The position numbers were made by a program, and so were the translations under genes. Below the pieces are notes generated by a model. The model ran no database searches. It saw nothing but the letters and a program-made list of their open reading frames with translations, and was not told the origin of the DNA. A DNA stretch of 61,436 bases from a virus. This document shows positions 31,987 through 53,824 of this stretch, one piece after another. The DNA is taken from the UHGV virus genome UHGV-0213688; one strand, 5' to 3'. Position 1 is the stretch's first letter; each line of letters opens with the position of its first letter.

Positions 31987-32051
31987 TGCAAAAATAGTTG
32001 CAAAGTAAGGCTTTACTGTGTATTGTGTGGACGGTTGTAACGGAGGGTATT

Positions 32052-32255
32052 ATGGATCACGAATCGGAATTTGATTTGAACTACATAACGGCAGCGGAAA
32101 TCGAAGACCGTTATGGCATATCTAAGTTTAAGATGTCGCGCATACGTGACAGCATCCCGGGCGCTATCAGAATTGCTAACCAGTACATCTACAAACGCTC
32201 CTTAGCAGTGCCCGTTCTGGAAAAGATGCAAGGCGATAAGCGTCGGAGGTCTTAA
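32052..32255 (+). CDS. small putative DNA-binding protein (HTH-like)
   Basis: ORF 31998..32255; preferred ATG 32052 with GGAGGG; ITAAEIEDRYGISKFKMSRIRDS resembles a helix-turn-helix. Confidence 0.4.
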   Translation: MDHESEFDLNYITAAEIEDRYGISKFKMSRIRDSIPGAIRIANQYIYKRSLAVPVLEKMQGDKRRRS

Positions 32256-32261
32256 TTAAAT

Positions 32262-34604
32262 ATGGAACTGTTTCCCGCTGAAATTAAAGCTTTCCCACAA
32301 TGGGCGGTCGCCGATGCGGATAAAAAGCCTCTTGTATGGGACAACGATATTGGACGTTTGATGGCGGCGGACGTTACCGATCCGGATATGCTTATGACGT
32401 TTGAAGCTGCCAAAGGTTGCGCCGCGCATTTCAACAAACCTTATATTGGCTTTGTGCTTACTGCACAAGACCCGTTCACCTGCATCGATCTGGATGTGAA
32501 GAACGCGACCAATGAACCTGATCCCAAGAAGCACACGACGCCGGAACAGTTGCGCCGCTTCGAACAGATCATGACTGCGTTCGATACTTACACCGAAGTA
32601 AGTCGCTCAGGTTTGGGTGTCCACCTGTGGTTAAGAGGTAACATCGGTAAAGGTCGCCGACGTGATGGTGTCGAGGTTTATAGTCAGGAGCGTTTTATTA
32701 TCTGCACGGGCAATCCTGTTTATAACAAACCAGTTGCAGAACGTGATCATTATCTTACTATGCTTGTGAATGAAATTGATCTTCAGCGCAAGACATATGA
32801 AATTGAACTGGTAGAAAAAGATCCGGTAGAAGACGATGCGACTATTCACCAGCGAGCACTTGAAGCGGACAACGGGGATAAGTATGCACGCCTATTCAAT
32901 GGCGAATGGGTTGAAATGGGATTCCCTTCCCAGTCTGAAGCAGACCTTGCCCTTATTTCTATGTATGCATTCTACACAGAAAGTAATGAGCAATGCCGTC
33001 GTCTGTTCCGTTACAGTGCACTGGGCAAACGTGAGAAGGCTAATAAGAACAATGTTCATATTGACCGTTGTTTGCGCATGTGCCGCGGTCGTATGGAGCG
33101 TGAGCGCATTGCCCAGGAAAACGTAGCGGCGCTGGCGCGGGATTACGCTGCTCGTATGCAAGCCGCACACAGTGCAATGCAGCAGGTAACGGAAATGCCT
33201 GTGATTGTCGAAACAACACAGGGGCAGACAGTAGTTGCGGAAAGTACATCCATTGATGCAACAGCTATTGACTGGCCACCGGGACTCGCTGGGGAGCTTG
33301 CGAAGTACATCTACAAAGCATCCGTCCGACCAGTAAAAGAAATCTCTATTGTGACTGCGCTCGGCTTTATGGCTGGGGTATGCGGGAAAGTATGGCAGAT
33401 TCCGCAATCCGGTCTTAATGGTTATTTTGTCTTAATTGCTCGTTCTGGTGTTGGTAAAGAGACGTTGAACAGTGGGCTGTCTAATATAGTTAGCCAGATT
33501 CAGGACCAGTTTCCGCAGATTCATAGCTTTGTATCTTTTGACAGATGCGCTTCTGGATCTGCACTGCGTAAATCTTTTGCAGACAAACAATCTTTTATCA
33601 ACTTGAACGGTGAGTTTGGTAAGATTATCAAAGCAATGGCAACGGCTCCAGCAGGATCGCCGATGCAAAGTTTCAAGAATGACCTTACCGATGTTTATCA
33701 AAAGTCCGGTCAGATGTCTATCGTTGGTGGTATGTCTTATTCTGATAAGGCTAATAATACTGAAGCTCAACAAGGTGTGGCATATAGCATCATGGGCGAA
33801 ACGACACCGGATACGTTCTTTGAAGCATTAACCCGTGAAATGATGGAGGACGGATTCTTATCCCGTTTCCATGTTGTACGCTATGAAGGTGATCGACCAC
33901 CTTTAAACAAAAATCAGCAGACTACAATGGATCAGCATTTGAAGGACATGGTGTGCCATCTTGTTAACCACACTTTAGTAACAATGGCAAAGCATCAGAG
34001 TATTGAAGTACAGTTTAGCCCGGATGCGGAAACATTATGCGATCAGTTTAACGATGAATGTGATCGCAATATTAACGCAACCAAAGACGAAGCGATCCGT
34101 CAGCCGTGGAACCGTGCTCACCTGAAGGTCTTGCGACTTTCTGCCTTGTTAGCTGTGGGTGAGAACTGGATCAATCCGGTGGTACAAACCTATCATGTGC
34201 AATGGGCTTTGGACTTCGTGCGTCATGGGCAGGATATTATTATGAAGGAATGGCATAGCGGAGGCATTGGGACTAATGATGAAGCTCGTATCCGTACTAT
34301 GTGTCAGGTCTGTGTGAATTATCTAACTAAAGACTGGGTGAAAGTTAAACGTGTAGATTTGCGCAAAGAAGGTATTATCACGCGGGGTGATATTACTACG
34401 CGTCTTGCAAGTAAGTCCGCGTTTAAAAACTATCATCACGGATTATCCGCTGCAATCGAGTCTACAATCAAGGAGATGGTTGCTATGGGTGCACTTGTTC
34501 CGGTAACACGGGAGGAGACTATTAAACTGGGATTTACTGGGGCAGCTTGGCGCATTACGCAAGATGTTGAAGGAATTATGGCAAACTTAGGTGAAGAGGA
34601 ATAA
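32262..34604 (+). CDS. DNA primase/helicase (PrimPol-type primase domain + P-loop helicase domain)
   Basis: 780 aa; N-terminal DLD and SRSGLGVHLW motifs; central phage/plasmid primase-like region; Walker-A-like ARSGVGKET. Confidence 0.7.
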   Translation: MELFPAEIKAFPQWAVADADKKPLVWDNDIGRLMAADVTDPDMLMTFEAAKGCAAHFNKPYIGFVLTAQDPFTCIDLDVKNATNEPDPKKHTTPEQLRRFEQIMTAFDTYTEVSRSGLGVHLWLRGNIGKGRRRDGVEVYSQERFIICTGNPVYNKPVAERDHYLTMLVNEIDLQRKTYEIELVEKDPVEDDATIHQRALEADNGDKYARLFNGEWVEMGFPSQSEADLALISMYAFYTESNEQCRRLFRYSALGKREKANKNNVHIDRCLRMCRGRMERERIAQENVAALARDYAARMQAAHSAMQQVTEMPVIVETTQGQTVVAESTSIDATAIDWPPGLAGELAKYIYKASVRPVKEISIVTALGFMAGVCGKVWQIPQSGLNGYFVLIARSGVGKETLNSGLSNIVSQIQDQFPQIHSFVSFDRCASGSALRKSFADKQSFINLNGEFGKIIKAMATAPAGSPMQSFKNDLTDVYQKSGQMSIVGGMSYSDKANNTEAQQGVAYSIMGETTPDTFFEALTREMMEDGFLSRFHVVRYEGDRPPLNKNQQTTMDQHLKDMVCHLVNHTLVTMAKHQSIEVQFSPDAETLCDQFNDECDRNINATKDEAIRQPWNRAHLKVLRLSALLAVGENWINPVVQTYHVQWALDFVRHGQDIIMKEWHSGGIGTNDEARIRTMCQVCVNYLTKDWVKVKRVDLRKEGIITRGDITTRLASKSAFKNYHHGLSAAIESTIKEMVAMGALVPVTREETIKLGFTGAAWRITQDVEGIMANLGEEE

Positions 34605-36942: not shown

Positions 36943-37536
36943 ATGACTGACGTATTAAATAGCACAGAAAGTTCTTTTGTAATTGATGTTGAAAAATTTG
37001 CCGCAGTATTAAGCACAATTCCGGTCGGTGTGAAACGCTTAACAGACAGCGCCATCTTGCCAGCGTTCGCTACTGCTGGGGCAGCTTGCTTTGACCTGCA
37101 CGCGGATCTCAAAAGTGAAGACGGTTGTGAACAAATCATTTTCTCTTACGAGCACATATTCCGCACAGGGTTGGCGTTTGATATCCCTAAAGGGTATGCG
37201 CTTATGGTCTATTCCCGTAGTGGGCACGGATTCAAAAATGACGTGCGTTTGGCAAACTGCGTGGGCGTTATTGATAGCGATTACACTGGCGAAGTTAAAG
37301 TTAAGCTTACTATTGATCATGATGGTTGTTTTACCGTTAGTCATGGTGATCGTATTGCGCAAGCTATGCTTATTAAGGTGCCTTGCGTGCAACTGGTAGA
37401 AGTAGAAGAACTCAAAACTACTGAGCGCGGTGCTAATGGATTCGGGTCAACTGGCACGTCTGCCAATGTGGTTACAGCAGAGGAAGAAGCTGCTACGCAT
37501 CCGATCATGACTTCACGTCATTTAGATAAAAAATAA
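36943..37536 (+). CDS. dut: dUTP diphosphatase
   Basis: conserved dUTPase motifs: AGAACFDL, YSRSGHG, GVIDSDYTGE, RIAQ, RGANGFGSTG. Confidence 0.8.
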   Translation: MTDVLNSTESSFVIDVEKFAAVLSTIPVGVKRLTDSAILPAFATAGAACFDLHADLKSEDGCEQIIFSYEHIFRTGLAFDIPKGYALMVYSRSGHGFKNDVRLANCVGVIDSDYTGEVKVKLTIDHDGCFTVSHGDRIAQAMLIKVPCVQLVEVEELKTTERGANGFGSTGTSANVVTAEEEAATHPIMTSRHLDKK

Positions 37537-43071: not shown

Positions 43072-45048
43072 ATGCAACTCCGCGATTATCAACAGGAAGC
43101 AGTTTATAGCGTATTCCGCTATTTTGATGCTGAAAAGGGTAACGCGGGGAACCCTTTGATCCTGTTACCAACAGGGACAGGAAAATCGCTCGTTATCGCG
43201 GGGTTCCTCGATCTGCTTTATAAATGGTATCCAAACCAGCGCGTAATGATGTTAACTCACGTCAAAGAGTTAATTGCGCAAAACTATGATAAATTAATGA
43301 AAGTCTGGCCTGAAGCGCCAGCAGGTATTTACAGCGCAGGTTTGAAGCGTAAAGAAGTTTATAATCTTATCACATTTGCGGGGATTGCATCTGTTGCTAA
43401 GCATCCTAAAAAGTTCGGCAAGGTTGATCTAATCTTTGTGGATGAAGCGCACCTTATTAGTCCGCGTGATGCAACAATGTATAAGAAGTTCTTTGCAGCA
43501 TTGCGTGAAGTTAACCCGTATTTAAAAATTATCGGTCTTACCGCTACACCTTACCGACTGGGTTACGGCTCAATTGTTAAGGAAAACGAAGACGATGATG
43601 CTTTATTTGATAAAGTAACGTTTGATGCAACTACCCCTGAAGCCTTTAACTGGTTCCTGGAGCAAGGCTATTTGCTTCCGGTTGTGCCAAAGCGTACAAA
43701 GATGGAACTGGACCTCAATGGTGTAGGGAAACGCGGCGGTGAGTTTATTCAGAGTGAGCTGCAAAGTGCGGTGAACCGCGACGACGCAACACTCCGAGCA
43801 CTTGAGGAAGCCATTGAATGTGGTGAAGACCGTCAAAGTTGGCTTATATTTTGTTCTGGTATTGAACACGCTAAAGATGCGTGTGATATGCTAAACGATA
43901 TGGGTATTAGTTGCGGATGTATTCACTCAAAGCTTGATGCAAAAGAGCGTGACGAGATTATTGAAAAGTTCAAGCGTGGAGAGTTTCGAGCGCTGACAAA
44001 TAACAACGTCTTAACCACAGGTTTCGACCATCCAATGCTTGATCTGATTATCATGCTTCGCCCAACTGCCTCGGCGGTGCTATGGGTTCAGATGTTGGGT
44101 CGCGGTACGCGTCCGGTATATGCGGAGGGCTTTGATCTTTCCACGCAGGAAGGCCGCTTGCAAGCTATTGCAGCAAGCCCTAAGCAGAACTGCCTTGTAC
44201 TGGATTTCAGCGGTAATACGCGTCGTTTGGGCCCTATTAACGACCCTGTTAAACCCAAGCGCCCGGGCGAAAAAGGTGCTGGTACTGCTCCGGTTAAAGA
44301 ATGCGATGTGTGCGGGTCGTATAATCATGCATCTGCTCGCTATTGTGGTGGCTTTGCACCAATTCCTATGGACAGCGTTACACAGGAACAAGTTCAACAA
44401 TTATATTTGAAGGGATTCAGACTACGTGGAACGGATTATGTTAAAGAAGGATTTTGCGGTCATGAGTTTAAGTTCCAGACGAAACTTAAAAAGGCAGCAA
44501 GTACCGAAGCACTGATCAAACAGGACATTCCGGTAGTTGAAGACTTCAAAGTTACGCATGTGACTTATGCGAAGCACACTAAACGCAATGACAGCTCCAA
44601 ACCTCCAACAATGAAGGTGACTTATTATTGCGGTAGTAAAATATTCAGCGAATGGGTAGCTCTACTTCATGGTGACTGGGCGGGTCGTAAAGCGGTCGCA
44701 TGGTGGAAGAAAAGGACGCATCTTCCTTTACCACAAACTATTGAAGAAGCTCTTGATGTTGCTGCAATGCTTAAAACACCGAAATACATCAAAGTTCATA
44801 CCAATAAGAAATGGCCTGAGATATTGAACTACGATTATGATGGTACGTGTTTCGGTAAGTTTGAAGCTCCACAGGACGACGAAGCTATTCAAGTTAAAGT
44901 ATACGGGCAAGATGGAACAACCGAAGGTCCGAGCTATAACGATGATGTGAGCTGGGATGATATTGTTTCGCAGAATACGCAAGGTATAACAGTGAACAAT
45001 GTGGTTAATCCTGTACAAGTAGATGATCCAGATTACGTTCCGTTCTAA
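43072..45048 (+). CDS. superfamily 2 DNA helicase (DEAH-type)
   Basis: DYQQEAV (Q-motif-like), Walker A PTGTGKS, VDEAH box, helicase C-terminal region, Cys4 zinc ribbon CDVCGS...CGG. Confidence 0.75.
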   Translation: MQLRDYQQEAVYSVFRYFDAEKGNAGNPLILLPTGTGKSLVIAGFLDLLYKWYPNQRVMMLTHVKELIAQNYDKLMKVWPEAPAGIYSAGLKRKEVYNLITFAGIASVAKHPKKFGKVDLIFVDEAHLISPRDATMYKKFFAALREVNPYLKIIGLTATPYRLGYGSIVKENEDDDALFDKVTFDATTPEAFNWFLEQGYLLPVVPKRTKMELDLNGVGKRGGEFIQSELQSAVNRDDATLRALEEAIECGEDRQSWLIFCSGIEHAKDACDMLNDMGISCGCIHSKLDAKERDEIIEKFKRGEFRALTNNNVLTTGFDHPMLDLIIMLRPTASAVLWVQMLGRGTRPVYAEGFDLSTQEGRLQAIAASPKQNCLVLDFSGNTRRLGPINDPVKPKRPGEKGAGTAPVKECDVCGSYNHASARYCGGFAPIPMDSVTQEQVQQLYLKGFRLRGTDYVKEGFCGHEFKFQTKLKKAASTEALIKQDIPVVEDFKVTHVTYAKHTKRNDSSKPPTMKVTYYCGSKIFSEWVALLHGDWAGRKAVAWWKKRTHLPLPQTIEEALDVAAMLKTPKYIKVHTNKKWPEILNYDYDGTCFGKFEAPQDDEAIQVKVYGQDGTTEGPSYNDDVSWDDIVSQNTQGITVNNVVNPVQVDDPDYVPF

Positions 45049-45063
45049 TTGACTTCAACATCT

Positions 45064-45096
45064 AATGCCCCTACTATTGGGGCATTACTTATTTAT
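45064..45096 (+). terminator. probable rho-independent terminator
   Basis: AATGCCCC-tactatt-GGGGCATT then interrupted T-run ACTTATTTAT. Confidence 0.5.
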
Positions 45097-45107
45097 AGGG
45101 GATTGCA

Positions 45108-45602
45108 ATGTACGTCCTGATTGATACAGATAAATTTGAACTCTTGGCAAAGCATCCCAATTGGCTGACACTACACCAACTTGGAATTATTTGTTGCCCT
45201 GAGTCAACACTGGTGACACCAGTAGACGATTTACATGATCTTGAAGATGTTGATCTTCAAATGCTTTATATTAACTTGACAGAAAACTTAGGAGCTGCAC
45301 CTTATGAACGGGAAATCGTTGAGCGCATTTTGTTTGATTACTTTACGCAACTTCCAGAAACAATCCTGGATCACGCCCAAATCAGCGCACAAGCCGAATT
45401 CTGTGTGGAATACGATATCCAAGGCTTTTGCTCACCTCAAATTGGGCAATACGTTCCGTCAATGGATGAAGGACTTTGGAAACCTGCCCGTGCCAAATAC
45501 GATGCTGAACGGGAGGGTGGTATTATTTCCGGTGCCAGGGTCGTTTGTGAGCAACCCGCATTGCAAGCCGCATGGACACCGGGCAGAGGGGCAAAGAGTT
45601 AG
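45108..45602 (+). CDS. hypothetical protein
   Basis: 164 aa; AGGGG RBS. Confidence 0.5.
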   Translation: MYVLIDTDKFELLAKHPNWLTLHQLGIICCPESTLVTPVDDLHDLEDVDLQMLYINLTENLGAAPYEREIVERILFDYFTQLPETILDHAQISAQAEFCVEYDIQGFCSPQIGQYVPSMDEGLWKPARAKYDAEREGGIISGARVVCEQPALQAAWTPGRGAKS

Positions 45603-45623
45603 TAAGTTCTAAGCTTGATCAAA

Positions 45624-45641
45624 AATATTTTTAAAAATATT
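45624..45641. repeat. perfect 18-bp AT palindrome upstream of 45730 gene (candidate operator)
   Basis: AATATTTTTAAAAATATT is its own reverse complement. Confidence 0.5.
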
Positions 45642-45729
45642 CAGATAAGGGGTTGCGTGTCACAAAATCCTTTGGTACATTTAACCCCGTTGGTAACAAA
45701 CGAACCCATAACAATTCGGAGTGAAGAGA

Positions 45730-46533
45730 ATGAGCAACATTGAAGACAAAAAAGCTGCTGCCGCAGCCGCTGCTGCCGCCGCTGCAAAATCTGCTAAACC
45801 TGCAAAGAAAGAAGCTACTGTGAATGATGCAGAAGCTAAGAAAGCCGCAGCCGCTGAAGCTGCACGCGTAGCAAAAGAGAAAAAAGAAGCAGAGAAAAAA
45901 GCTGCCGCTGAAAAGAAACAAGCTGAAATCCGCACTGAAGCGGAAAACAAATTCAATGCGATTGCTAACGCTGCTGAAATCCTGAAAAACTCTTTGGCTA
46001 CCGTCACCGACGAAAGCACTGTTGAACAGATCACGGAAGCGGAAACTCAGGGATCTGCAAACCTGAAGACCATTAAAGAAGCTCTGAAAGAGCTGAAAGC
46101 TGTCGTTAAGAAGTCTAAAGGTGAAGACCTGTCCGGTGCTGTAACTTCTGCTCAGGGCCTGGTGGATGGTCTGGAAGCTACTATTAAAGGCTTCAAAGAC
46201 AAGATCCGTGCTGCAAAACAGGCAGAAAAAGAAGCGGAAAAAGCGCGCGCTAAAGAGCTTCGTGAGAAAGAAAAAGAAGCTAACCGTATGCCGGAACAGA
46301 ACGGTGTTCGTCGTCCACAACCGGAAACTTCCTGCGGTCGTGCCTGGGCTCTGATGGACCAGATTAGCGCTACGCTGGGTCAGCCTGCTCCGATCTCTTA
46401 TGTTCTGAACCTGGCTGGTCGCCATGGTCTGAACGAAGATACCATTAAAACTCAGTATGCACGCTGGAAGAAATTTAATGGTGTGACTGGTCGCGTACCT
46501 GTACCCGTACCGGAAGCCCTGAACGGCTTGTAA
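45730..46533 (+). CDS. Ala/Lys/Glu-rich protein with poly-Ala run and conserved C-terminal module
   Basis: GGAG 9 nt upstream of ATG 45730 (ORF track begins at GTG 45721); 11 consecutive Ala codons; C-terminal module shared with 29400..30014. Confidence 0.55.
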   Translation: MSNIEDKKAAAAAAAAAAAKSAKPAKKEATVNDAEAKKAAAAEAARVAKEKKEAEKKAAAEKKQAEIRTEAENKFNAIANAAEILKNSLATVTDESTVEQITEAETQGSANLKTIKEALKELKAVVKKSKGEDLSGAVTSAQGLVDGLEATIKGFKDKIRAAKQAEKEAEKARAKELREKEKEANRMPEQNGVRRPQPETSCGRAWALMDQISATLGQPAPISYVLNLAGRHGLNEDTIKTQYARWKKFNGVTGRVPVPVPEALNGL

Positions 46534-46558
46534 TATCAAAACATATCACGTTATAATG

Positions 46559-46587
46559 AAAGCGCCCAATGAGGCGCTTTCTTTTTC
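46559..46587 (+). terminator. rho-independent terminator
   Basis: AAAGCGCC-CAATGA-GGCGCTTT followed by CTTTTTC. Confidence 0.65.
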
Positions 46588-46602
46588 ACTAGAGGATTTA
46601 AG

Positions 46603-47310
46603 ATGAATATTAATCAACAAGCTCCCGAGTCTCGTTCTAAAGAAAACGATATGTATTTAGACGTGCATTCGGTATTCTCTACCATTCAGGGTGAAGGTCC
46701 ATTCTGCGGTCAACCTGCGGTATTTGTGCGCCTTGCTGGATGTAACCTGCAATGCCCGGGCTGCGACACGGATTATACTGTTGGTCGTTCTCTTTACCAC
46801 ATTGTTGATATCATGCGTTTAATCGAAAGCCGTAAGCTGGAATCTGGCAATAGCACCTCACTTGTGGTTATCACTGGGGGCGAACCATTCCGCCAGCAAA
46901 TTAACCCGTTTATTGAACAACTGTTATCACGCGGGTATCTTGTGCAGATTGAAACGAATGGGTCTATGCCTTTACCTAAGAACTTTTCCCAGCTACCTGT
47001 CATTGTATGCAGTCCTAAGACTTCAAAAATTCATCCTACTGTGCTGTACCGAGCAAACGCATTTAAATATGTGCTTAAAGCGTGCTGTGTAAACGTGGAA
47101 GACGGTTTACCGCTTCAGGCATTAGATCATCAAGCTACGCCATTTATCGCTAGACCTCCGAAGGGGTTCAAGGGTAAGATATATTTACAGCCAATGGACG
47201 AGCAGGATGAAGATCTTAACCACAGTAACATCCAAGCGGTTGTCCAAAGCTGTATGAAACACGGGTACACGTTGCAGCTTCAGGTTCACAAATATATCGG
47301 GGTGGAATAA
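46603..47310 (+). CDS. queE: 7-carboxy-7-deazaguanine synthase (radical SAM)
   Basis: VFSTIQGEGPFCGQPAVFVRLAGCNLQCPGCDTDYT matches the QueE N-terminal cluster-binding signature; AGAGGA RBS. Confidence 0.8.
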   Translation: MNINQQAPESRSKENDMYLDVHSVFSTIQGEGPFCGQPAVFVRLAGCNLQCPGCDTDYTVGRSLYHIVDIMRLIESRKLESGNSTSLVVITGGEPFRQQINPFIEQLLSRGYLVQIETNGSMPLPKNFSQLPVIVCSPKTSKIHPTVLYRANAFKYVLKACCVNVEDGLPLQALDHQATPFIARPPKGFKGKIYLQPMDEQDEDLNHSNIQAVVQSCMKHGYTLQLQVHKYIGVE

Positions 47311-47312
47311 CT

Positions 47313-47573
47313 ATGAGCGAAAAATATATGTTTGAAAATCGTCCTATTGATGGTATGACCTGGAACAAACTCCAGGAAGCTGCTTGTCACGGTGCATTAG
47401 TTTGCACTAAAGAGCGCGATGTTGAAAAGGCCGGACCTGTTTATAAACTCCGCGACCCTTGTAATGAAGAATACTGCTTTGTGTTTAGCGATGAAGCTGA
47501 ACAGTTTAGTAATCCTTACCGCACCGCTGATGAAGCTGCGGAAATGAGTCGTAAATATGCGGATCAATTATGA
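47313..47573 (+). CDS. hypothetical protein inside deazaguanine module
   Basis: 86 aa; GGGGTGGAATAACT-ATG. Confidence 0.5.
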   Translation: MSEKYMFENRPIDGMTWNKLQEAACHGALVCTKERDVEKAGPVYKLRDPCNEEYCFVFSDEAEQFSNPYRTADEAAEMSRKYADQL

Positions 47574-47582
47574 GGTGGAATA

Positions 47583-47795
47583 ATGATCACTTTGGAAGAA
47601 GCGAAACAGCATCAGGAAATGATCACTGAGCTGGTAGAAAAACTTAATTCTGCAATTGCTCACGCTACTATGCAGGGTGTGCATGTTGAATTAGATATTA
47701 ATCACGTTAGTACAATTGGAGCACGCAATCATCCGATTGTGATGTCAAACGTAACAATCAACCCTTGTGATATTAAAGGTGTAGAAGATGAATGA
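47583..47795 (+). CDS. hypothetical small protein (possible paralogue of next gene)
   Basis: 70 aa; GAGGTGGAATA-ATG, same RBS context as upstream gene. Confidence 0.45.
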   Translation: MITLEEAKQHQEMITELVEKLNSAIAHATMQGVHVELDINHVSTIGARNHPIVMSNVTINPCDIKGVEDE

Positions 47796-47976
47796 AGAAA
47801 CTGTAATTCTTATGCAGAAAATTCAACGTTTACAGGACGAGTTGAATGACGCTATTTGCCGCGCTGCATCAAAGAAAATACATTCGGAGCTTGAAATACA
47901 CCAGCGCCGGGTAACATCTGAAGCGGTGGTGGAACAAGTAGTCATTAACCTCAATATTAGTCTTAAAGGTTTCTAA
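47788..47976 (+). CDS. hypothetical small protein
   Basis: 62 aa; overlaps upstream gene by 8 nt; AAAGGTG RBS. Confidence 0.45.
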   Translation: MNEETVILMQKIQRLQDELNDAICRAASKKIHSELEIHQRRVTSEAVVEQVVINLNISLKGF

Positions 47977-47977
47977 A

Positions 47978-48700
47978 ATGAACAAATTAGATAAACTGGT
48001 ATTCCCTGTAAAAAATCATAACTCCGCCGTTGTGGTCCTGTCTGGCGGTCAGGACAGCGTGACCTGTTTAGGTCTTGCACTTAATAACTATGATAAGGTT
48101 TACGCTATTGGTTTTGCATACGGTCAACGTCACACTGTGGAATTAGCTTGCGCTGAACAGATATGTAAAGAACACGATGTCCCATTTGTTGTCTTTGAAT
48201 TACCTGCTTTGAAACAGATTGGCAATAGCGCTTTAATTGGGAACGAAGGTGATGTTAACGAACATCACGAACAGCACAACAACCTTCCAGCAAGCTTTGT
48301 GCCAAACCGTAATGCTCTTTTCCTGACTACCGCGCACGCCTACGCGCAGAAAGTTGGTGCCCGATATGTGGTTACAGGCGTCTGTGAAACAGACTATAGC
48401 GGTTATCCGGATTGCCGCCAGCAGTTTGTAGACTTGCTTGAAGCTACGTTAAACGTTGGATATGAAACAGATATTCATTTCGTTACCCCGCTTATGCGTT
48501 TAAATAAAGCAGAAACGTTTGAGCTGGCGGATAAGGTTGGCTTCTTAACCACAGTAATTGAACAGTCCCATACTTGCTATAACGGTGTCCGTCGCACTCT
48601 GCATGACTGGGGCTATGGTTGCGGTGAATGCCCTGCGTGCAAACTGCGTGCTAAAGGGTACAGTGAATTTATGGATAACGCTTACAGCAAACACGTTTGA
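47978..48700 (+). CDS. queC: 7-cyano-7-deazaguanine (preQ0) synthase
   Basis: PP-loop VVLSGGQDS; C-terminal Zn-binding Cys cluster CYNG...CGECPACKLR; 240 aa with no amidotransferase fusion. Confidence 0.85.
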   Translation: MNKLDKLVFPVKNHNSAVVVLSGGQDSVTCLGLALNNYDKVYAIGFAYGQRHTVELACAEQICKEHDVPFVVFELPALKQIGNSALIGNEGDVNEHHEQHNNLPASFVPNRNALFLTTAHAYAQKVGARYVVTGVCETDYSGYPDCRQQFVDLLEATLNVGYETDIHFVTPLMRLNKAETFELADKVGFLTTVIEQSHTCYNGVRRTLHDWGYGCGECPACKLRAKGYSEFMDNAYSKHV

Positions 48701-48820
48701 TCTTACCGCGAAAACCGCACCGCTAGCGCATTGTTTAGGGTGCGGGAACCCAACTATACTACTAAACCTTTTAAACCCAACAACCAGCGAATAACGCTGT
48801 TAAAACTGGAGAACAAAAGT

Positions 48821-49300
48821 ATGAAATTTATCGTTGCTTATCTGGCTGCAATTACATTCGTAAACCTGGGCTTTTCCTACCTTCCAATGCTCAATACGCC
48901 TCTTGGCGTGGTCCCGATGATGGCTTTCTTTGTAGGTATTATCTTTGTGTTGCGTGACTACGCACAGCGTAACGCTGGTAAAGGCGTTATCCCTGCAATG
49001 ATTGTGGGTTGCATCCTTAGCTGGGTATTTGGGGATCCTGCTGTTGTAGTTGCATCCGTTGCATCCTTTGCTCTTAGCGAGTTTGCGGACTATGCGGTAT
49101 ACACGATTACTAAGAAGCCGTTTCATCAACGTGTATTTATTAGCTCTTTGGTAGCTGTACCGATTGACTCCATTGTGTTCTTAAGTATTATAGGTATTGT
49201 TAATCCGGGATCAATGGTAGCAATGAGCTTAAGTAAGTTCACAGCATCTGCTATTCTTTGGGTTGTTTACGAAGTTCATTCACGTACAGCGAGAGCGTAA
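48821..49300 (+). CDS. YhhQ/DUF165-like membrane protein (queuosine-precursor transporter family)
   Basis: ORF 48731..49300; preferred ATG 48821 after GGAG; about 159 aa, 4-5 hydrophobic helices; VLRDYAQRNAG and SEFADYAVY resemble YhhQ motifs; sits between queC and queD. Confidence 0.5.
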   Translation: MKFIVAYLAAITFVNLGFSYLPMLNTPLGVVPMMAFFVGIIFVLRDYAQRNAGKGVIPAMIVGCILSWVFGDPAVVVASVASFALSEFADYAVYTITKKPFHQRVFISSLVAVPIDSIVFLSIIGIVNPGSMVAMSLSKFTASAILWVVYEVHSRTARA

Positions 49301-49302
49301 AA

Positions 49303-49890
49303 ATGAAAGATAATTTGAATAAGATTTGGCACCAACACGACGGTAAAGGGATGCCTATTTTTCTTCGTAATGAGAAGTTTGAAGTTCGTTTGCGCAACGG
49401 CACACACGTTAAGAATTTATTAGATGGATGGGATTGGGCTATGGAAGGGCGTTCAGCTATGGATGAAAATAGCCCTTATAAAGTTCAAGATATTATAGCC
49501 TGGCGATATATCGTTGCGGATGATTACGTCAAACAAGCTAGCGAAAACACTCGCTCCGGATTGTACCATCAAGCTTCTGAAACAAGCATAAGTAATACAT
49601 TTAATGGTGCAGTTTTTACGAAATATGAACCATCTAAAATTCCCATGAATAAATATCAGAAAATTATTTATGGTAAAGATCAAAACGGCAATGTTGTAAA
49701 GTGCATCGTGGATGTGTATGATGTCTTGGAAGCTTGGAAGACAACTAACCCAGCTTTGCAGCATTTAATTAAAAAAGCGTTGCAGCCGGGCGAACGCGGT
49801 CATAAAAGTCTGGTAGAAGACTTGAAAGATATTATTGCATCCGCACAGCGTGCATTAGAAATTGAACAGTCTAAAGAGGTATTAAAATGA
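49303..49890 (+). CDS. hypothetical protein embedded in deazaguanine module
   Basis: ORF 49258..49890; preferred ATG 49303 directly after upstream stop; no motif recognised. Confidence 0.5.
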   Translation: MKDNLNKIWHQHDGKGMPIFLRNEKFEVRLRNGTHVKNLLDGWDWAMEGRSAMDENSPYKVQDIIAWRYIVADDYVKQASENTRSGLYHQASETSISNTFNGAVFTKYEPSKIPMNKYQKIIYGKDQNGNVVKCIVDVYDVLEAWKTTNPALQHLIKKALQPGERGHKSLVEDLKDIIASAQRALEIEQSKEVLK

Positions 49891-50423
49891 GCTATACAGT
49901 AATTCGTTCACATGAAATTTGCGCCGGACATCGTGTTGTAGGTCACGAAAGCAAATGTCGCCACCTCCACGGTCACAACTATAAGTTTCACTTTAAGGTT
50001 GCTCCGAAGCATGGATGCGGAAAAGTAGTGACACGAGGAAAGCTGATTGAGGACGGTCTGGACAGCGTTGGGCGCGTGATTGACTTTAGTGTGGTTAAAA
50101 CTACGCTCTGCCAGTGGCTAGAAGATAACTGGGATCATAAGTTTCTACATTGGGAAAAGGATATGTTGATCAACGGACTGCAATGTTGTATTGAAACGGA
50201 TACTCAATCTGAACGCGGTTGGCCTACTTTCGGTGAAGGGGATGAAGATCTTAAAGCTTTTAACGATTCACTGGTATCTTTGCCGTTCAACCCAACTGCG
50301 GAAAACCTAGCTGCATATATGGTTGAAGTGATTGGTCCGCTACTGCTTGACGAACATGGCGTTCAACTTGTAGAATGCACCATCGAAGAAACTTCGAAAT
50401 GTCACGTAAACTATAGCCTGTAA
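49887..50423 (+). CDS. queD: 6-carboxy-5,6,7,8-tetrahydropterin synthase
   Basis: CAGHRVVGHESKCRHLHGHNYKF matches the QueD Cys/His zinc and active-site signature; AAAGAGG RBS. Confidence 0.8.
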   Translation: MSYTVIRSHEICAGHRVVGHESKCRHLHGHNYKFHFKVAPKHGCGKVVTRGKLIEDGLDSVGRVIDFSVVKTTLCQWLEDNWDHKFLHWEKDMLINGLQCCIETDTQSERGWPTFGEGDEDLKAFNDSLVSLPFNPTAENLAAYMVEVIGPLLLDEHGVQLVECTIEETSKCHVNYSL

Positions 50424-50424
50424 T

Positions 50425-51063
50425 ATGACCACATTAACAAGGAAACTGCAAACCATGTCAAAATTTACTATTAATGACGAAAGTATTCAATTTGAAATTA
50501 CTCGCGCGGTGCGCGCTTTACTAACTCGAATTGAAAATTGCACTGAATTACGTCCAGGTTTGGAAGAGACTCCATATCGTGTCGCTAAAGCCTATGCTAC
50601 ATGGTTCGGCGGTTATAATGTGGATATTGCTGGTCTGTTTAAGACCTTTGAAGACGGGGCGGAAGGTTCAAATGAAATGGTCATCGTCCGTGATATTCCA
50701 GTTTATAGCCATTGTGAACACCATATAGCCCCTATTATCGGTCGCGCTGTTGTGGGGTATGTTCCTAACGGTCGCATTGTGGGGCTCAGTAAACTGTCTC
50801 GCGTTGTGGATGCTTTTAGTCGTCGACTGCAAGTTCAGGAACGTCTTACTAACCAGATTGCTGACGCTATCCAGGAACACCTGAATCCGAAAGCTGTATG
50901 TGTTTATATTGATGCCAAGCATATGTGCATGGAGTCGCGCGGTGTTAAGCAGGTATGCGGCAGCTCTACTATTACCAAAGCGTTCCGGGGCGCTACAGAA
51001 CTGGAGCATGGTAGCGATATTGGTAAAGAATGGCGCCGGGAGTTCCTCGAAGCTTGTAAATAA
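50425..51063 (+). CDS. folE: GTP cyclohydrolase I
   Basis: CEHHIAPIIG, GLSKLSRVVDAFSRRLQVQERLT and HMCMESRG motifs; start could instead be ATG 50455. Confidence 0.85.
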   Translation: MTTLTRKLQTMSKFTINDESIQFEITRAVRALLTRIENCTELRPGLEETPYRVAKAYATWFGGYNVDIAGLFKTFEDGAEGSNEMVIVRDIPVYSHCEHHIAPIIGRAVVGYVPNGRIVGLSKLSRVVDAFSRRLQVQERLTNQIADAIQEHLNPKAVCVYIDAKHMCMESRGVKQVCGSSTITKAFRGATELEHGSDIGKEWRREFLEACK

Positions 51064-51082
51064 TAGATAGCTTTACAGATCA

Positions 51083-51119
51083 AGCCCATATCGGTCATAA
51101 TACTGGTATGGGCTTTTTA
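51083..51119 (+). terminator. possible terminator (long loop)
   Basis: AGCCCATA - 16-nt loop - TATGGGCT followed by TTTTT. Confidence 0.4.
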
Positions 51120-51134
51120 GTCATTGGAGGAAAT

Positions 51135-51341
51135 ATGGTAAGACAATACTTTTTCAACGTTCGAGCTGTAGAAAAAGGTACTTTCAGAGTTCTGTTATGT
51201 ATGGACGGTATTGCTGAAAGCAGTAACGCAAAACAAATTCATGCGGATCTGCATGTTAGAGTTGAACAGATCTTAAGCGAGCAATGCTTTAAGAAAGAAA
51301 ATTATCTCATTGAAGTAGTCGCTTTAAACAACGTGGAGTAA
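51135..51341 (+). CDS. hypothetical small protein
   Basis: ORF 51108..51341; preferred ATG 51135 with GGAGG upstream. Confidence 0.45.
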   Translation: MVRQYFFNVRAVEKGTFRVLLCMDGIAESSNAKQIHADLHVRVEQILSEQCFKKENYLIEVVALNNVE

Positions 51342-51344
51342 GAA

Positions 51345-52265
51345 ATGAACGTTTTTATGGCAGCAGTTTACACAAACGGATATATGCCCGGGCAGCAGCG
51401 CTATGAAAAGCTGTCCGAGCATGAGAAAAATATCACGCGCAATCTGCCCCATATTTTGGAATCATACCACTACGTTGGACGTCAGAAGTATGTTGATCAA
51501 ATGCGTGCGGATGGGGCTAAAGTGTTTCTCGACTCCGGTGCATTCTCCGCGCACTCGTTAGGTGCTCACATTGATATTGTTGAATACTGCGAATACATCA
51601 AGCGCAACAAAGACATCCTTCGCGTAGAAGATGGTGCGGTGATGGCGTCAGTGCTCGATGGTATCGGTGATCCGTTGCAGACCTACCGTAACCAACTTGA
51701 AATGGAAGCACGCGGTGCTAAACCGTTACCTTGCTTTCACTTTGGGGAGGACTTCCGCTATCTTGAATACTACATGAAGAACTACGAATATATCACCATC
51801 GGGGGCATGGTAGGACGTTCCACAGACACGCTTAAAACTTGGCTGGACCGCATGTGGGACAAATACATTTGCGACGGTAGCGGACGTGCTAAGATTAAAC
51901 TTCATGCGTTTGGTATTACGTCCACAACCATTATGGAACGTTATCCGTGGTATAGCTGTGACTCTTCCTCCTGGATTCAAGCAGCAGCGTTTGGAAGTGT
52001 GGTTACTCCTCCGTGGGGCCCAATGCGCGTATCAGATAAGTCACCGGACCGCCATCATTTTGGTAAGCATGTTTCAACATTAACTGAAATTGAACAAGAC
52101 GCTGTCCTTAAATACCTTGAGCAAAACGGTTTCACTTACGAACGTTTATCAACAATCTATGAATCACGTGCTGCCTTCAACTTATGGGCGTATGGTGTAA
52201 TTGCTACAAACATTAACGCTACCCATGACGGCACATTCCGTGATCGTGTAATGGAGTTATTTTGA
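51345..52265 (+). CDS. dpdA: DpdA-like tRNA-guanine-transglycosylase homologue (7-deazaguanine DNA transglycosylase)
   Basis: TGT-like VFLDSGAFSAH motif and TIM-barrel-like pattern; no TGT zinc site; directly downstream of folE. Confidence 0.65.
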   Translation: MNVFMAAVYTNGYMPGQQRYEKLSEHEKNITRNLPHILESYHYVGRQKYVDQMRADGAKVFLDSGAFSAHSLGAHIDIVEYCEYIKRNKDILRVEDGAVMASVLDGIGDPLQTYRNQLEMEARGAKPLPCFHFGEDFRYLEYYMKNYEYITIGGMVGRSTDTLKTWLDRMWDKYICDGSGRAKIKLHAFGITSTTIMERYPWYSCDSSSWIQAAAFGSVVTPPWGPMRVSDKSPDRHHFGKHVSTLTEIEQDAVLKYLEQNGFTYERLSTIYESRAAFNLWAYGVIATNINATHDGTFRDRVMELF

Positions 52266-52492
52266 TGGCTAACTTAAGAAGACCAAAAGGCAAACGTAAA
52301 TATACTCACACAGGCGTAAGAATTAATTATTACGGTGAAAACAGAGTAGTATTTCTCCACAAGACACCTAAGCAGTGGCAGGATCCGTCAGGTACATGGT
52401 TTAATGCACAAGGAAAACAAATGGGGCTTTACGGATACCCTCCAACCTGCGAATTAGATTTAACCACAATTAGAGCAATCGAGGATCGCTAA
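52262..52492 (+). CDS. hypothetical small protein
   Basis: 76 aa; GGAG RBS; overlaps dpdA stop. Confidence 0.45.
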   Translation: MMANLRRPKGKRKYTHTGVRINYYGENRVVFLHKTPKQWQDPSGTWFNAQGKQMGLYGYPPTCELDLTTIRAIEDR

Positions 52493-52728
52493 TGACACCA
52501 GTATGTGAAGAATATATTACTTCTCAATCTAAAGCTGGGGGTAAAGCGGTAGGTCGTGTTGCTATCGCTAAGTTAACAAACGCGGGCTATGAACCAAAAG
52601 TCACCCCGCCTCCCCCTGAGCCCTGGATATGGGAGAAAAACGGGGGTCGTATTATAGCCATTACATCGTATATGGGACCTTTTAGATTAAAGATTGAGTA
52701 TCTTGTAGACTTAGATGGGGACTCCTAA
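52492..52728 (+). CDS. hypothetical small protein
   Basis: 78 aa; GAGGA RBS. Confidence 0.45.
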   Translation: MTPVCEEYITSQSKAGGKAVGRVAIAKLTNAGYEPKVTPPPPEPWIWEKNGGRIIAITSYMGPFRLKIEYLVDLDGDS

Positions 52729-53681
52729 TGCTTGACGCTCTTAAATTTGTTCAAGGCTCCGTCGCTAAAAAGGAACTGGTAGAAGGGCTTACCAGCTTTC
52801 TTATCCGTGATGGGCAGGTACAGGGCTTTAACGGTGTTATTGCACTGGGTAGTCCTATTGAGTTGGATATTGATTGCAAGCCCGAAGCTGGGCCTATGAT
52901 TAAAGCTATTTCCAACTGCGATGAAACAGTGCAGCTAACAATGATGGCTAACGGTAAGTTAAATATCAAGTCCGGTCCGTTTCGTGTTGCTATACGCTGC
53001 ATTGATAAAGAAACGCCGCACGTATTTCCTGAAGGTGATTTGTACGAAATAGACGGCGCTCGCTTCGTGCATGGTGTAAAGTCCGTTGCTCCATTTGTTG
53101 GGTCCGATGCTTCCCGTCCGTGGGCTTGCGGTATCCTGATTAATAACGGTAGCCTGTTTGCTACAAATAACGTCACTATTGCGGAATACTGGTTTGGTAA
53201 TCAGTTCCCTATTGATTGCATAATACCTTCCGTTGCAATTAAAGAAATACTGCGTATTAAAGCTAACCCGACGCATATTCAGGTTAGCAAGAATAACGTA
53301 ACGTTTCATTATCCGGAAGGTCGCTGGTTGCGGACACAGCTTATTGATGCGGAATGGCCCGATATACGTCGTATTTTAAATGTTCAATGCAATGCACATC
53401 CTGTTGATCCAGGTCTTTTTGAAGGCTTGCATAAAATTAAACCGTTCGCAGAAGACCGACCGCGTGTATATATTGAAAACGGTCTAGCCCGTACTCACTA
53501 TGATGATGCAGAAGGTGCAAGCTTCGTATTACAGGACCGCACTATAACGGGAGTGTACAATATTGACATCCTGCTATTGCTTGAAAATGTGGTTAAGACG
53601 GCGGACTTTAGTTTATATCCGCAACCTTGCGCATTCTTTGGGGAAAACCTTCGCGGTGTATTAATTGGAGAACGTGTATGA
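52728..53681 (+). CDS. putative sliding-clamp (DnaN beta-clamp-like) protein
   Basis: 317 aa just upstream of DNA polymerase; DAEWPDIRRILN resembles DnaN GRFPDYRRVLP; weak overall. Confidence 0.4.
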   Translation: MLDALKFVQGSVAKKELVEGLTSFLIRDGQVQGFNGVIALGSPIELDIDCKPEAGPMIKAISNCDETVQLTMMANGKLNIKSGPFRVAIRCIDKETPHVFPEGDLYEIDGARFVHGVKSVAPFVGSDASRPWACGILINNGSLFATNNVTIAEYWFGNQFPIDCIIPSVAIKEILRIKANPTHIQVSKNNVTFHYPEGRWLRTQLIDAEWPDIRRILNVQCNAHPVDPGLFEGLHKIKPFAEDRPRVYIENGLARTHYDDAEGASFVLQDRTITGVYNIDILLLLENVVKTADFSLYPQPCAFFGENLRGVLIGERV

Positions 53682-53824
53682 CAAATGAAGAAACATATAA
53701 AGAGGCTTGTGATAAGGTTATACTTTCGCGCTCAAATAAAAACCATAAACCTACACCTGCTCCGGAAGGGTTAAGCGACGATGAACTTTTAAAATGGTTG
53801 GAGTCTTTTAAAGATGAGGACTGA
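53678..53824 (+). CDS. small hypothetical protein (48 aa)
   Basis: ORF 53627..53824; preferred ATG 53678 with GGAG 8 nt upstream, ATGA overlap with upstream stop. Confidence 0.35.
   Translation: MTNEETYKEACDKVILSRSNKNHKPTPAPEGLSDDELLKWLESFKDED

What the first reader, a model, noticed from the sequence alone, without database searches (positions are those of the whole stretch)
46603..52265. Phage-encoded 7-deazaguanine DNA-modification module (folE, queD, queE, queC, dpdA)
Five genes with strong diagnostic motifs sit together: GTP cyclohydrolase I (CEHH, GLSKL...QERLT), QueD (CxxHGH), QueE (AGCNLxCxxCDT), QueC (SGGQDS plus C-terminal Cys cluster) and a TGT-like DpdA (LDSGAFS, no zinc site). 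In bacteria these enzymes make the tRNA queuosine precursor preQ0. Paired with a DpdA transglycosylase in a phage, the established role is swapping genomic guanine for a 7-deazaguanine base as an anti-restriction hypermodification. QueC here is the plain 240-aa form with no glutamine-amidotransferase fusion, and no queF is present, so the predicted base is preQ0 (or its amido precursor) rather than archaeosine or preQ1. Several unassigned ORFs (47313-47976, 49303-49890, 51135-51341, 52262-52728) are interleaved and could add further steps.
Basis: partly seen in the sequence, partly recalled or inferred. Interest (0 to 1): 0.9.

Follow-up and report, generated by a model that had tools for sequence, protein, structure and literature searches.

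The report
Known Seuratvirus preQ0 DNA-modification gene cluster
This is the well-studied gene cluster with which Seurat/CAjan-type E. coli phages replace about a third of their DNA guanines with the base preQ0 to escape restriction enzymes; it is real and correctly read, but already known.

Summary
Window 46603-52265 (+) carries intact queE, queC, queD, folE and dpdA, and every cited motif is present except that the QueD motif is CxxxHGH, not CxxHGH.

The whole window is a Seuratvirus (Queuovirinae) phage genome, 93-97% identical in DNA to published coliphages. Its DpdA is 305/306 identical to Escherichia phage CAjan DpdA. QueE is 233/235, QueC 234/240 and YhhQ 157/159 identical to the CAjan proteins.

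For CAjan, published LC-MS/MS found dPreQ0 at about 32% of G. A dpdA deletion abolishes the modification and restores restriction sensitivity, folE and queC deletions cut it about 12-fold, and the targets are GA and GGC.

The interleaved small ORFs are unlikely to add chemistry. Several are swapped for unrelated ORFs in near-identical phages. The largest shares only a domain common in phages without this pathway. CAjan DNA contains only dPreQ0.

Verdict: interpretation supported, already known, low interest.

The parts
46603..47310 (+). queE, 7-carboxy-7-deazaguanine (CDG) synthase, radical SAM, 235 aa
   Evidence: CX3CX2C motif AGCNLQCPGCDT. NCBIfam QueE models at 1.8e-27 to 1.9e-20, below equivalog cut-offs. 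phrog_2076 at 2.6e-68. 233/235 identical to CAjan gp45.
47313..47573 (+). Small ORF, 86 aa, function unknown, in a variable slot
   Evidence: Unrelated to the 85-aa ORF at the same position in WildeMaa, and CAjan has no ORF here. Identical in Aeromonas phage SD04; 32-42% identical in ~76-kb Klebsiella, Erwinia and Salmonella phages. No Pfam hit.
47583..47795 (+). Small ORF, 70 aa, function unknown
   Evidence: 69/70 identical to WildeMaa bas23_0045. Weak similarity to the next ORF, 11/26. No Pfam hit.
47788..47976 (+). Small ORF, 62 aa, function unknown
   Evidence: 56/62 identical to WildeMaa bas23_0044. No credible Pfam hit.
47978..48700 (+). queC, 7-cyano-7-deazaguanine (preQ0) synthase, plain 240-aa form without an amidotransferase domain
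   Evidence: PF06508 at 7.1e-75 covering residues 17-231; TIGR00364 at 243 bits, above cut-off 150. Aligns only to positions 132-353 of the 418-position phrog_1550 profile. SGGQDS and Cys cluster present. 234/240 identical to CAjan gp42.
   Evidence: Pfam Vut_1 at 1.7e-5 (25.7 bits, GA 27.2) and TIGR00697 'queuosine precursor transporter' at 2e-4, both below cut-off. phrog_4899 at 1.2e-48. 157/159 identical to CAjan gp41. The CAjan yhhQ deletion leaves the modification unchanged.
49303..49890 (+). ORF of 195 aa, function unknown; variable N-terminal part plus a highly conserved ~65-aa C-terminal domain
49887..50423 (+). queD, 6-carboxytetrahydropterin (CPH4) synthase, 178 aa with a variable middle insertion
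   Evidence: PF01242 at 4.6e-22. TIGR03367 at 3.7e-17, below its equivalog cut-off. CRHLHGH motif. 77% identical to CAjan gp38, but 100% identical to the allele in phages PLYYY01, SHIN8 and RCIP0359.
50425..51063 (+). folE, GTP cyclohydrolase I, 212 aa
   Evidence: PF01227 at 1.6e-61; TIGR00063 at 186.7 bits, above cut-off 181.6. CEHH, GLSKL and QERLT present. 162/171 identical to CAjan gp37 over the aligned part, with a different N-terminus.
51108..51341 (+). Small ORF, 77 aa (or 68 aa from 51135), function unknown, in a variable slot
   Evidence: No similarity to CAjan gp36, which has the same size and position. Identical in WildeMaa, CSP1 and CSP1C. No Pfam or PHROG hit.
51345..52265 (+). 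dpdA, DNA guanine transglycosylase of the phage DpdA1 type (preQ0 insertase), 306 aa
52262..52492 (+). Small ORF, 76 aa, function unknown, conserved next to dpdA
   Evidence: 75/75 identical to CAjan gp34. phrog_38388 at 9e-58. No Pfam hit.
52492..52728 (+). Small ORF, 78 aa, function unknown, present in only some relatives
   Evidence: 75/78 identical to WildeMaa bas23_0035. CAjan has no ORF between gp34 and the clamp gene. No Pfam or PHROG hit.

Best explanation
The region is the 7-deazaguanine DNA-hypermodification cluster of a Seuratvirus (subfamily Queuovirinae) coliphage.

Proposed mechanism:
1. FolE converts GTP to dihydroneopterin triphosphate.
2. QueD converts that to 6-carboxytetrahydropterin (CPH4).
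3. The radical-SAM enzyme QueE converts CPH4 to 7-carboxy-7-deazaguanine (CDG).
4. QueC converts CDG, via the amide, to 7-cyano-7-deazaguanine (preQ0).
5. DpdA, a TIM-barrel paralogue of tRNA-guanine transglycosylases, excises guanine from double-stranded phage DNA after replication and inserts preQ0 in its place. The predicted targets are GA and GGC, about 29% of the Gs in this genome.

A YhhQ-like membrane protein may additionally salvage external preQ0 but is dispensable. The resulting dPreQ0 protects the phage genome from type I and type II restriction.

Shown by sequence in this window: the presence and integrity of all six genes, and near-identity to CAjan. Shown experimentally only in CAjan and relatives: the base, the dependence on dpdA, folE and queC, the motifs and the protection. 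Inferred by homology only: the QueD and QueE steps, post-replicative timing and transport by YhhQ.
For: - The module is 91-96% identical in DNA to 28 Seuratvirus records at >=80% coverage. The rest of the window is 93-97% identical to the same phages.
- Identity to CAjan proteins: DpdA 305/306, QueE 233/235, QueC 234/240, YhhQ 157/159.
- CAjan DNA has dPreQ0 at 70,628 per 10^6 nt (about 32% of G), with dADG, dG+ and dPreQ1 each below 6 per 10^6. The dpdA deletion carries no modification and is fully digestible (PMC6884629).
- The folE and queC deletions lose about 12-fold; the yhhQ deletion is unaffected; the motifs are GA and GGC (PMC7544227).
- GA plus GGC sites make up 28.6% of G in this window, or 63,831 per 10^6 nt.
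- Profile hits for every enzyme.
- NCBIfam DpdA is the only model hit consistently, by 25 of 27 family members.
- No QueF, glutamine amidotransferase, ArcS or methyltransferase domain in 20 ORFs of >=120 aa in the non-structural regions.
- Seuratvirus phages resist type I and II restriction-modification in vivo (PMC8594841).
Against: - Nothing was measured for this particular phage.
- The DpdA ORF gets no Pfam TGT hit even at E<=10, and only 16.9 bits against a cut-off of 200 on NCBIfam DpdA.
- PDB sequence searches with the protein or with a 27-sequence profile found nothing.
- The QueE and QueD scores fall below NCBIfam equivalog cut-offs.
- The QueD allele is only 77% identical to CAjan's, although identical alleles occur in other Seuratviruses.
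- ORFs shorter than 120 aa and the structural half of the genome were not profile-scanned for extra modifying enzymes.
Confidence: 0.93

Rival explanations
1. The cluster makes a further-processed base (dADG, dG+, dPreQ1 or a new derivative) because one or more of the seven unassigned small ORFs adds a chemical step after preQ0.
For: Seven ORFs of unknown function are interleaved and tightly packed with the pathway genes. Other phages extend the pathway with QueF, Gat-QueC, DpdL, DpdM or DpdN-type enzymes (PMC10516641). Some slots differ from CAjan.
Against: - CAjan, with the same core enzymes and homologues of four of these ORFs, carries only dPreQ0.
- No small ORF hits any Pfam family even at E<=10.
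- All are 62-195 aa, and several are swapped for unrelated ORFs or absent in near-identical phages.
- The conserved domain of the 195-aa ORF occurs in 719 phage records, mostly lacking deazaguanine genes.
- By the coordinates in Table 1 of PMC7544227, the CAjan 'yhhQ' deletion (550 bp from 31,850) also removes the 5' end of gp40, the homologue of that ORF, without changing modification. This is an inference.
Confidence: 0.04
2. The genes serve tRNA modification, boosting the host's queuosine pathway to tune translation during infection rather than modifying DNA.
For: FolE, QueD, QueE and QueC are the bacterial preQ0 enzymes for queuosine. Relatives annotate the DpdA ORF as 'queuine tRNA-ribosyltransferase'. 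This idea was raised before the chemistry was done (PMC5758909).
Against: In CAjan the product is found in virion DNA at about 32% of G and depends on dpdA. The window's DpdA is 99.7% identical. The protein lacks the zinc-site CxCxxC motif of the tRNA enzymes. No tRNA genes are in the window, and neither are queF, queA or queG.
Confidence: 0.02
3. The cluster is present but inactive in this isolate, a decaying remnant, so the DNA is unmodified.
For: No experimental data exist for this genome. The QueD and FolE alleles differ from CAjan's.
Against: All ORFs are full length with intact catalytic motifs. Each allele is 96-100% identical to one in some other isolated Seuratvirus. SeppeHuegi carries a QueD allele 99.4% identical and belongs to the BASEL collection whose Seuratviruses resist restriction-modification.
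Confidence: 0.01

Closest known systems
Escherichia phage CAjan 7-deazaguanine (dPreQ0) cluster, gp34-gp45 (NC_028776; Hutinet 2019, Kot 2020)
   Same: Same gene order: queE, small ORFs, queC, yhhQ, unknown ORF, queD, folE, small ORF, dpdA, small ORF, then clamp and DNA polymerase. DpdA 305/306, QueE 233/235, QueC 234/240, YhhQ 157/159 and gp34 75/75 identical.
   Different: - QueD is only 77% identical, with a different middle insertion.
- The FolE N-terminus differs.
- The window has extra ORFs at 47313-47573 and 52492-52728.
- The window has an ORF unrelated to gp36 before dpdA.
- It has one 195-aa ORF (55% identical to gp40) where CAjan has gp39 plus gp40.
Escherichia phage WildeMaa (Bas23), SeppeHuegi and other BASEL or SLUR Seuratviruses
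   Same: 93-94% DNA identity over 89-94% of the module. The annotated products are the same six functions. Eleven of the thirteen window ORFs are 92-100% identical in WildeMaa.
   Different: The ORF after queE is unrelated. WildeMaa QueD is 128/171 identical, although SeppeHuegi's is 99.4%.
Enterobacteria phage 9g and Nonagvirus dG+ (archaeosine) cluster
   Same: Same subfamily, same DpdA1-type transglycosylase (about 68-69% identical in Nonagvirus ChristophMerian and JenP1) and the same FolE, QueD and QueE.
   Different: 9g has Gat-QueC, an amidotransferase fusion, and makes dG+ (PMC6884629). The window's QueC is the plain 240-aa form that aligns only to the C-terminal two-thirds of the PHROG profile.
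Pseudomonas phage iggy dPreQ0 system
   Same: Same base (dPreQ0); DpdA is 72% identical.
   Different: iggy DpdA has a strict GA motif and modifies about 16.5% of G (abstract of PMC10484667). The CAjan-type enzyme also targets GGC.
Bacterial Dpd system (DpdA/DpdB/DpdC, Salmonella Montevideo; PDB 7ui4)
   Different: The score is far below the bDpdA equivalog cut-off, 16.9 against 200 bits. The protein is 306 aa against 413 for the 7ui4 chain. No DpdB or DpdC partners were seen. The bacterial enzyme modifies less than 0.1% of G, against about 30% for phage DpdA1 (PMC10516641).

Membership tests
CAjan-type (Seuratvirus) dPreQ0 DNA-modification cluster | Complete preQ0 pathway (FolE, QueD, QueE, QueC) encoded by the phage | tested here: met
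   Pfam, NCBIfam and PHROG hits for all four, intact catalytic motifs, 77-99% identity to the CAjan proteins.
CAjan-type (Seuratvirus) dPreQ0 DNA-modification cluster | DpdA1-type DNA transglycosylase with both catalytic aspartates | tested here: met
   305/306 identical to CAjan DpdA. D63, D206 and the seven pocket residues named in PMC7544227 are present.
CAjan-type (Seuratvirus) dPreQ0 DNA-modification cluster | No amidotransferase (Gat-QueC, ArcS) and no QueF, so the pathway stops at preQ0 | tested here: met
   QueC is 240 aa and consists of the QueC domain only. Pfam scans of 20 ORFs of >=120 aa outside the structural block found none. ORFs under 120 aa and the structural half were not scanned.
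CAjan-type (Seuratvirus) dPreQ0 DNA-modification cluster | dPreQ0 present in virion DNA at GA and GGC sites | not testable with these tools
   Only the number of candidate sites could be counted: 28.6% of G, against about 32% measured in CAjan.
tRNA-guanine transglycosylase superfamily (Pfam TGT, PF01702) | Significant match to the Pfam TGT profile | tested here: not met
   No Pfam family at E<=10 for 51345-52265. No PDB sequence hit with the protein or a 27-sequence profile.
tRNA-guanine transglycosylase superfamily (Pfam TGT, PF01702) | (beta/alpha)8 TGT catalytic fold | tested here: met
tRNA-guanine transglycosylase superfamily (Pfam TGT, PF01702) | Zinc-binding CxCxxC...H subdomain of the tRNA enzymes | tested here: not met
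   No CxCxxC motif, and only four scattered Cys at 82, 130, 176 and 205. That this motif defines the tRNA enzymes is from general knowledge and was not re-derived here.
Bacterial DpdA (NCBIfam NF041059 equivalog) | Score at or above the curated cut-off of 200 bits | tested here: not met
   16.9 bits, E 0.0022, residues 147-212 only. The hit is consistent across 25 of 27 homologues, with best E 8.9e-5. The protein is therefore related to bDpdA but is not a member of that equivalog.
YhhQ / Vut_1 (COG1738) preQ0 transporter | Match to PF02592 or TIGR00697 above the curated cut-off | tested here: inconclusive
   25.7 bits against GA 27.2, and 21.1 against 50.95. The protein is 159 aa and aligns to only part of each profile (residues 68-147 to positions 58-140 of the 152-position Vut_1 profile; residues 72-130 to positions 98-162 of the 201-position TIGR00697 profile). 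It is 99% identical to the CAjan protein that the literature calls YhhQ. Transport has not been shown.
QueE (7-carboxy-7-deazaguanine synthase, radical SAM) | CX3CX2C cluster motif and a match to QueE equivalog models | tested here: inconclusive
   The motif is present. Five QueE models hit at 1.8e-27 to 1.9e-20, but all are far below cut-off, about 96 against 200-300 bits. Pfam Radical_SAM scores 27.1 against GA 29.5. PHROG 'QueE-like' hits at 2.6e-68. No QueE knockout has been reported for CAjan.

The most novel reading that the evidence does not exclude
The swappable small ORFs embedded in the cluster are not passengers. These are the slots at 47313-47573, 51108-51341 and 52492-52728, and the 195-aa ORF with the very conserved ~65-aa C-terminal domain. 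They could be accessory factors, for example modulators of DpdA target choice or efficiency, or counter-defences against nucleases that recognise deazaguanine-modified DNA. Differences in these slots would then explain differences in restriction or defence sensitivity among otherwise near-identical Seuratviruses.
Probability: 0.06. Interest if true: 0.45.

Novelty: already known. Interest (0 to 1): 0.1.

Why it matters
7-Deazaguanine DNA hypermodification is an important phage counter-defence, and it makes phage DNA hard to cut, clone and sequence. For this window the biology has already been worked out in a phage with an almost identical enzyme set, and the cluster is the name-giving signature of the Queuovirinae. 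The practical value here is correct annotation: this genome is predicted to carry dPreQ0 at GA and GGC sites, to resist HaeIII like CAjan and type I/II restriction like its genus, and to give lower-quality nanopore reads. The only open questions are the roles of the small unassigned ORFs, which the CAjan papers already flagged as unknown.

Tried and rejected
- **A preQ1 riboswitch before yhhQ.** I suspected one in the 120-nt gap. Rfam found nothing at gathering thresholds in the whole window, and only chance-level hits (E>=0.14) in 45000-53800. Rejected.
- **DUF3310/SaV in the 195-aa ORF.** From memory I suspected this domain in its C-terminus. Pfam does not support it. Rejected as untested resemblance.
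- **Operon signals.** Promoter- and terminator-like counts are not above shuffled expectation. Only the hairpin at 46558-46581 looks convincing.
- **Sandbox comparison with CAjan.** The locus fetched by accession (L002) was not exported to the Python sandbox, so the comparisons were done with the built-in tools.
- **QueD as a new variant.** I checked whether the divergent QueD allele was new. It is 100% identical in three published phages.

Full report
**Observation.** Profile searches confirm four of them at or near curated thresholds.
- QueC: PF06508 at 7e-75; TIGR00364 at 243 bits against a cut-off of 150.
- FolE: PF01227 at 1.6e-61; TIGR00063 at 186.7 bits against 181.6.
- QueD: PF01242 at 4.6e-22.
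- QueE: five NCBIfam QueE models at 1.8e-27 to 1.9e-20, all below their equivalog cut-offs, plus phrog_2076 'QueE-like' at 2.6e-68.

DpdA contains LDSGAFS, has no CxCxxC motif and has only four scattered cysteines, so 'no zinc site' holds at the sequence level.

It encodes a 159-aa membrane protein with sub-threshold hits to Vut_1 and to the 'queuosine precursor transporter' model. Relatives annotate it as the preQ0 transporter YhhQ.

**What the window is.** The module is 91-96% identical in DNA to 28 published phage genomes at >=80% coverage. These include Escherichia phages Seurat, slur01, Greed, WildeMaa and SeppeHuegi. The structural half of the window (1-25000) is 96.6% identical to phage phiG7, and the replication half is up to 95.6% identical to SD04 and others. 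No record is identical.

The window is therefore a Seuratvirus (Queuovirinae) genome of the usual 56-61 kb size (PMC8594841). The cluster sits inside the replication block. Upstream lie a primase/helicase, a PDDEXK nuclease, a dUTPase, RNase H, a ligase and an SF2 helicase. Downstream lie a clamp-like protein and the DNA polymerase.

**Comparison with the experimentally characterised system.** I fetched Escherichia phage CAjan (NC_028776) and compared proteins.

| Protein | Identity to CAjan |
|---|---|
| DpdA | 305/306 (A288T only) |
| QueE | 233/235 |
| QueC | 234/240 |
| YhhQ | 157/159 |
| small ORF after dpdA | 75/75 |
| FolE | 162/171 over the aligned part |
| QueD | 139/180 |

The QueD allele is not new. 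It is 100% identical in phages PLYYY01, SHIN8 and RCIP0359, and 99.4% identical in SeppeHuegi.

Published results for CAjan:
- LC-MS/MS found dPreQ0 at 70,628 per 10^6 nt (about 32% of G). dADG, dG+ and dPreQ1 were each below 6 per 10^6.
- A dpdA deletion had no modification and became fully restriction-sensitive (PMC6884629).
- folE and queC deletions lost about 12-fold of the modification, the remainder coming from host preQ0. A yhhQ deletion had no effect (PMC7544227).
- The modified sites are GA and GGC.
- The nine residues modelled as the preQ0/guanine pocket and the catalytic aspartates (D63, S64, F67, D105, H132, G153, G154, F189, D206) are all present in the window protein.

In this window GA plus GGC sites account for 28.6% of all G, or 63,831 per 10^6 nt. 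That is the same order as the measured CAjan density.

- Pfam gives no family at all, even at E<=10.
- The bacterial DpdA equivalog NF041059 hits only residues 147-212, at 16.9 bits against a cut-off of 200.
- PDB sequence searches with the protein or with a 27-sequence profile find nothing.
- In its favour, NF041059 is the only model hit consistently, by 25 of 27 homologues.
- phrog_887 ('queuine tRNA-ribosyltransferase') matches at 1e-95.
- Foldseek found only generic barrels.

The protein is thus a divergent TGT-fold enzyme of the phage DpdA1 subfamily (PMC10516641), not a member of the bacterial DpdA equivalog. Its function rests mainly on 99.7% identity to the genetically tested CAjan enzyme.

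**Which base?** QueC is the plain 240-aa form. The Pfam domain spans residues 17-231, and the protein aligns only to positions 132-353 of the 418-position PHROG profile. Pfam scans of 20 further ORFs of >=120 aa, all outside the structural block, found no QueF, amidotransferase, ArcS or methyltransferase. FolE's weak QueF hits reflect its own similarity to the QueF models, not a second gene. The prediction of dPreQ0 is therefore supported. The limits are that ORFs under 120 aa and the structural half were not scanned.

**The interleaved ORFs.** Kot et al. already state that the CAjan cluster has twelve genes, of which six have assigned functions (PMC7544227). My evidence argues against extra chemistry.
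- None hits Pfam at E<=10.
- The ORF after queE (47313-47573) is unrelated to the ORF in the same slot in WildeMaa and is absent in CAjan. Its only other relatives are in ~76-kb Klebsiella, Erwinia and Salmonella phages.
- The ORF before dpdA is unrelated to CAjan gp36, which has the same size and position.
- 52492-52728 is absent in CAjan.
- The 195-aa ORF (49303-49890) is 55% identical to CAjan gp40. Its conservation is concentrated in a ~65-aa C-terminal domain found in 719 phage records. Most of those are 41-48 kb Salmonella or Escherichia siphoviruses without deazaguanine genes, where the domain is fused to unrelated N-termini.
- Its predicted structure gave no fold assignment.
- Taking Table 1 of PMC7544227 at face value, the CAjan 'yhhQ' deletion is 550 bp from position 31,850. 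It would then also remove the 5' end of gp40 (31513-32082, minus strand), yet modification was unchanged. This last point is my inference from coordinates.

**Other checks.** No Rfam family reaches threshold anywhere in the window, and there is no preQ1 riboswitch in the 120-nt gap before yhhQ. The window has no tRNA genes. A convincing terminator-like hairpin (46558-46581, 9 bp with 6 GC pairs, then a T-run) lies just before queE. Overall, though, promoter and terminator counts are at chance level. Gene junctions are -8 to +9 nt except for two gaps of 120 and 44 nt.

**Verdict.** It has been described genomically since 2017 (PMC5758909), and its chemistry and genetics were resolved in 2019-2020. 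In vivo phenotyping in 2021 showed resistance to type I and II restriction-modification and sensitivity to type III. It is now known to be targeted by END nucleases (PMC12191111). It is already known, and interest is low.

Noticed in passing
window 48821-49300 (+): A 159-aa multi-pass membrane protein, YhhQ-like putative preQ0 transporter, sits between queC and the 195-aa ORF. Pfam and NCBIfam hits are just below cut-off, it is 99% identical to CAjan gp41, and it is dispensable for modification in CAjan.
   Followed up: yes
window 49303-49890 (+), especially residues 115-190: The C-terminal ~65 aa (NKYxxxI...VDVYDVLxAWxxxNPALQHLIKKALQPGxRGHKxxxxDLxDIxxSAxRA) is almost invariant. It occurs in 719 phage records fused to many unrelated N-terminal regions, mostly in phages without deazaguanine genes. 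No Pfam family and no structural match were found, so it is a widespread uncharacterised phage domain.
   Followed up: partly
window 47313-47573, 51108-51341 and 52492-52728 (+): Three small-ORF slots inside the cluster are mosaic. Near-identical Seuratviruses carry unrelated ORFs of the same size, or nothing, at these positions. The 86-aa ORF's only other relatives (32-42% identical) are in ~76-kb Klebsiella, Erwinia and Salmonella phages.
   Followed up: partly
window 47583-47795 and 47788-47976 (+): Two adjacent, overlapping small ORFs show weak mutual similarity (11/26 identical, E 4e-5 pairwise), possibly an old tandem duplication. CAjan's copy of the first is annotated 'radical SAM domain-containing protein', which no profile search here supports.
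   Followed up: partly
window 46558-46581 (+): A strong terminator-like hairpin (GAAAGCGCC-loop-GGCGCTTTC followed by TTTTT) lies 22 nt upstream of the queE start. It overlaps weak Rfam noise hits and follows a promoter-like site at 46528-46557. It may mark the upstream transcriptional boundary of the cluster.
   Followed up: no
window 45721-46533 (+): A 270-aa protein just upstream of the cluster has an 11-residue poly-alanine run and a long Lys/Ala/Glu-rich low-complexity region. It has no credible Pfam hit. The CAjan homologue is annotated 'transcriptional activator FtrA domain-containing protein'.
   Followed up: no
window 49887-50423 (+): QueD is 178 aa against a 121-position Pfam profile, with a middle segment that differs between alleles. 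That segment (about residues 40-60 and 95-125) varies strongly among Seuratviruses (77-100% identity) while both ends are nearly invariant, suggesting recombination or relaxed constraint in a surface insertion.
   Followed up: partly
window 1-61436: GC skew and coding strand switch near 29-30 kb. The ORFs up to about 25.7 kb lie on the minus strand, and relatives annotate the matching region as tail, capsid, portal and terminase genes. Replication and modification genes from about 27-57 kb lie on the plus strand, and minus-strand ORFs resume at about 57.9-61.4 kb. No tRNA or Rfam family is present. The window looks like a complete or nearly complete Seuratvirus genome with no identical record in the phage collection.
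   Followed up: partly
window 32262-34604 and 36943-37536 (+): A 780-aa protein combines the helix-bundle domain of NrS-1-type polymerases with DUF3987, making it a primase/helicase candidate. A separate 197-aa dUTPase-family protein lies in the same replication block.
   Followed up: no
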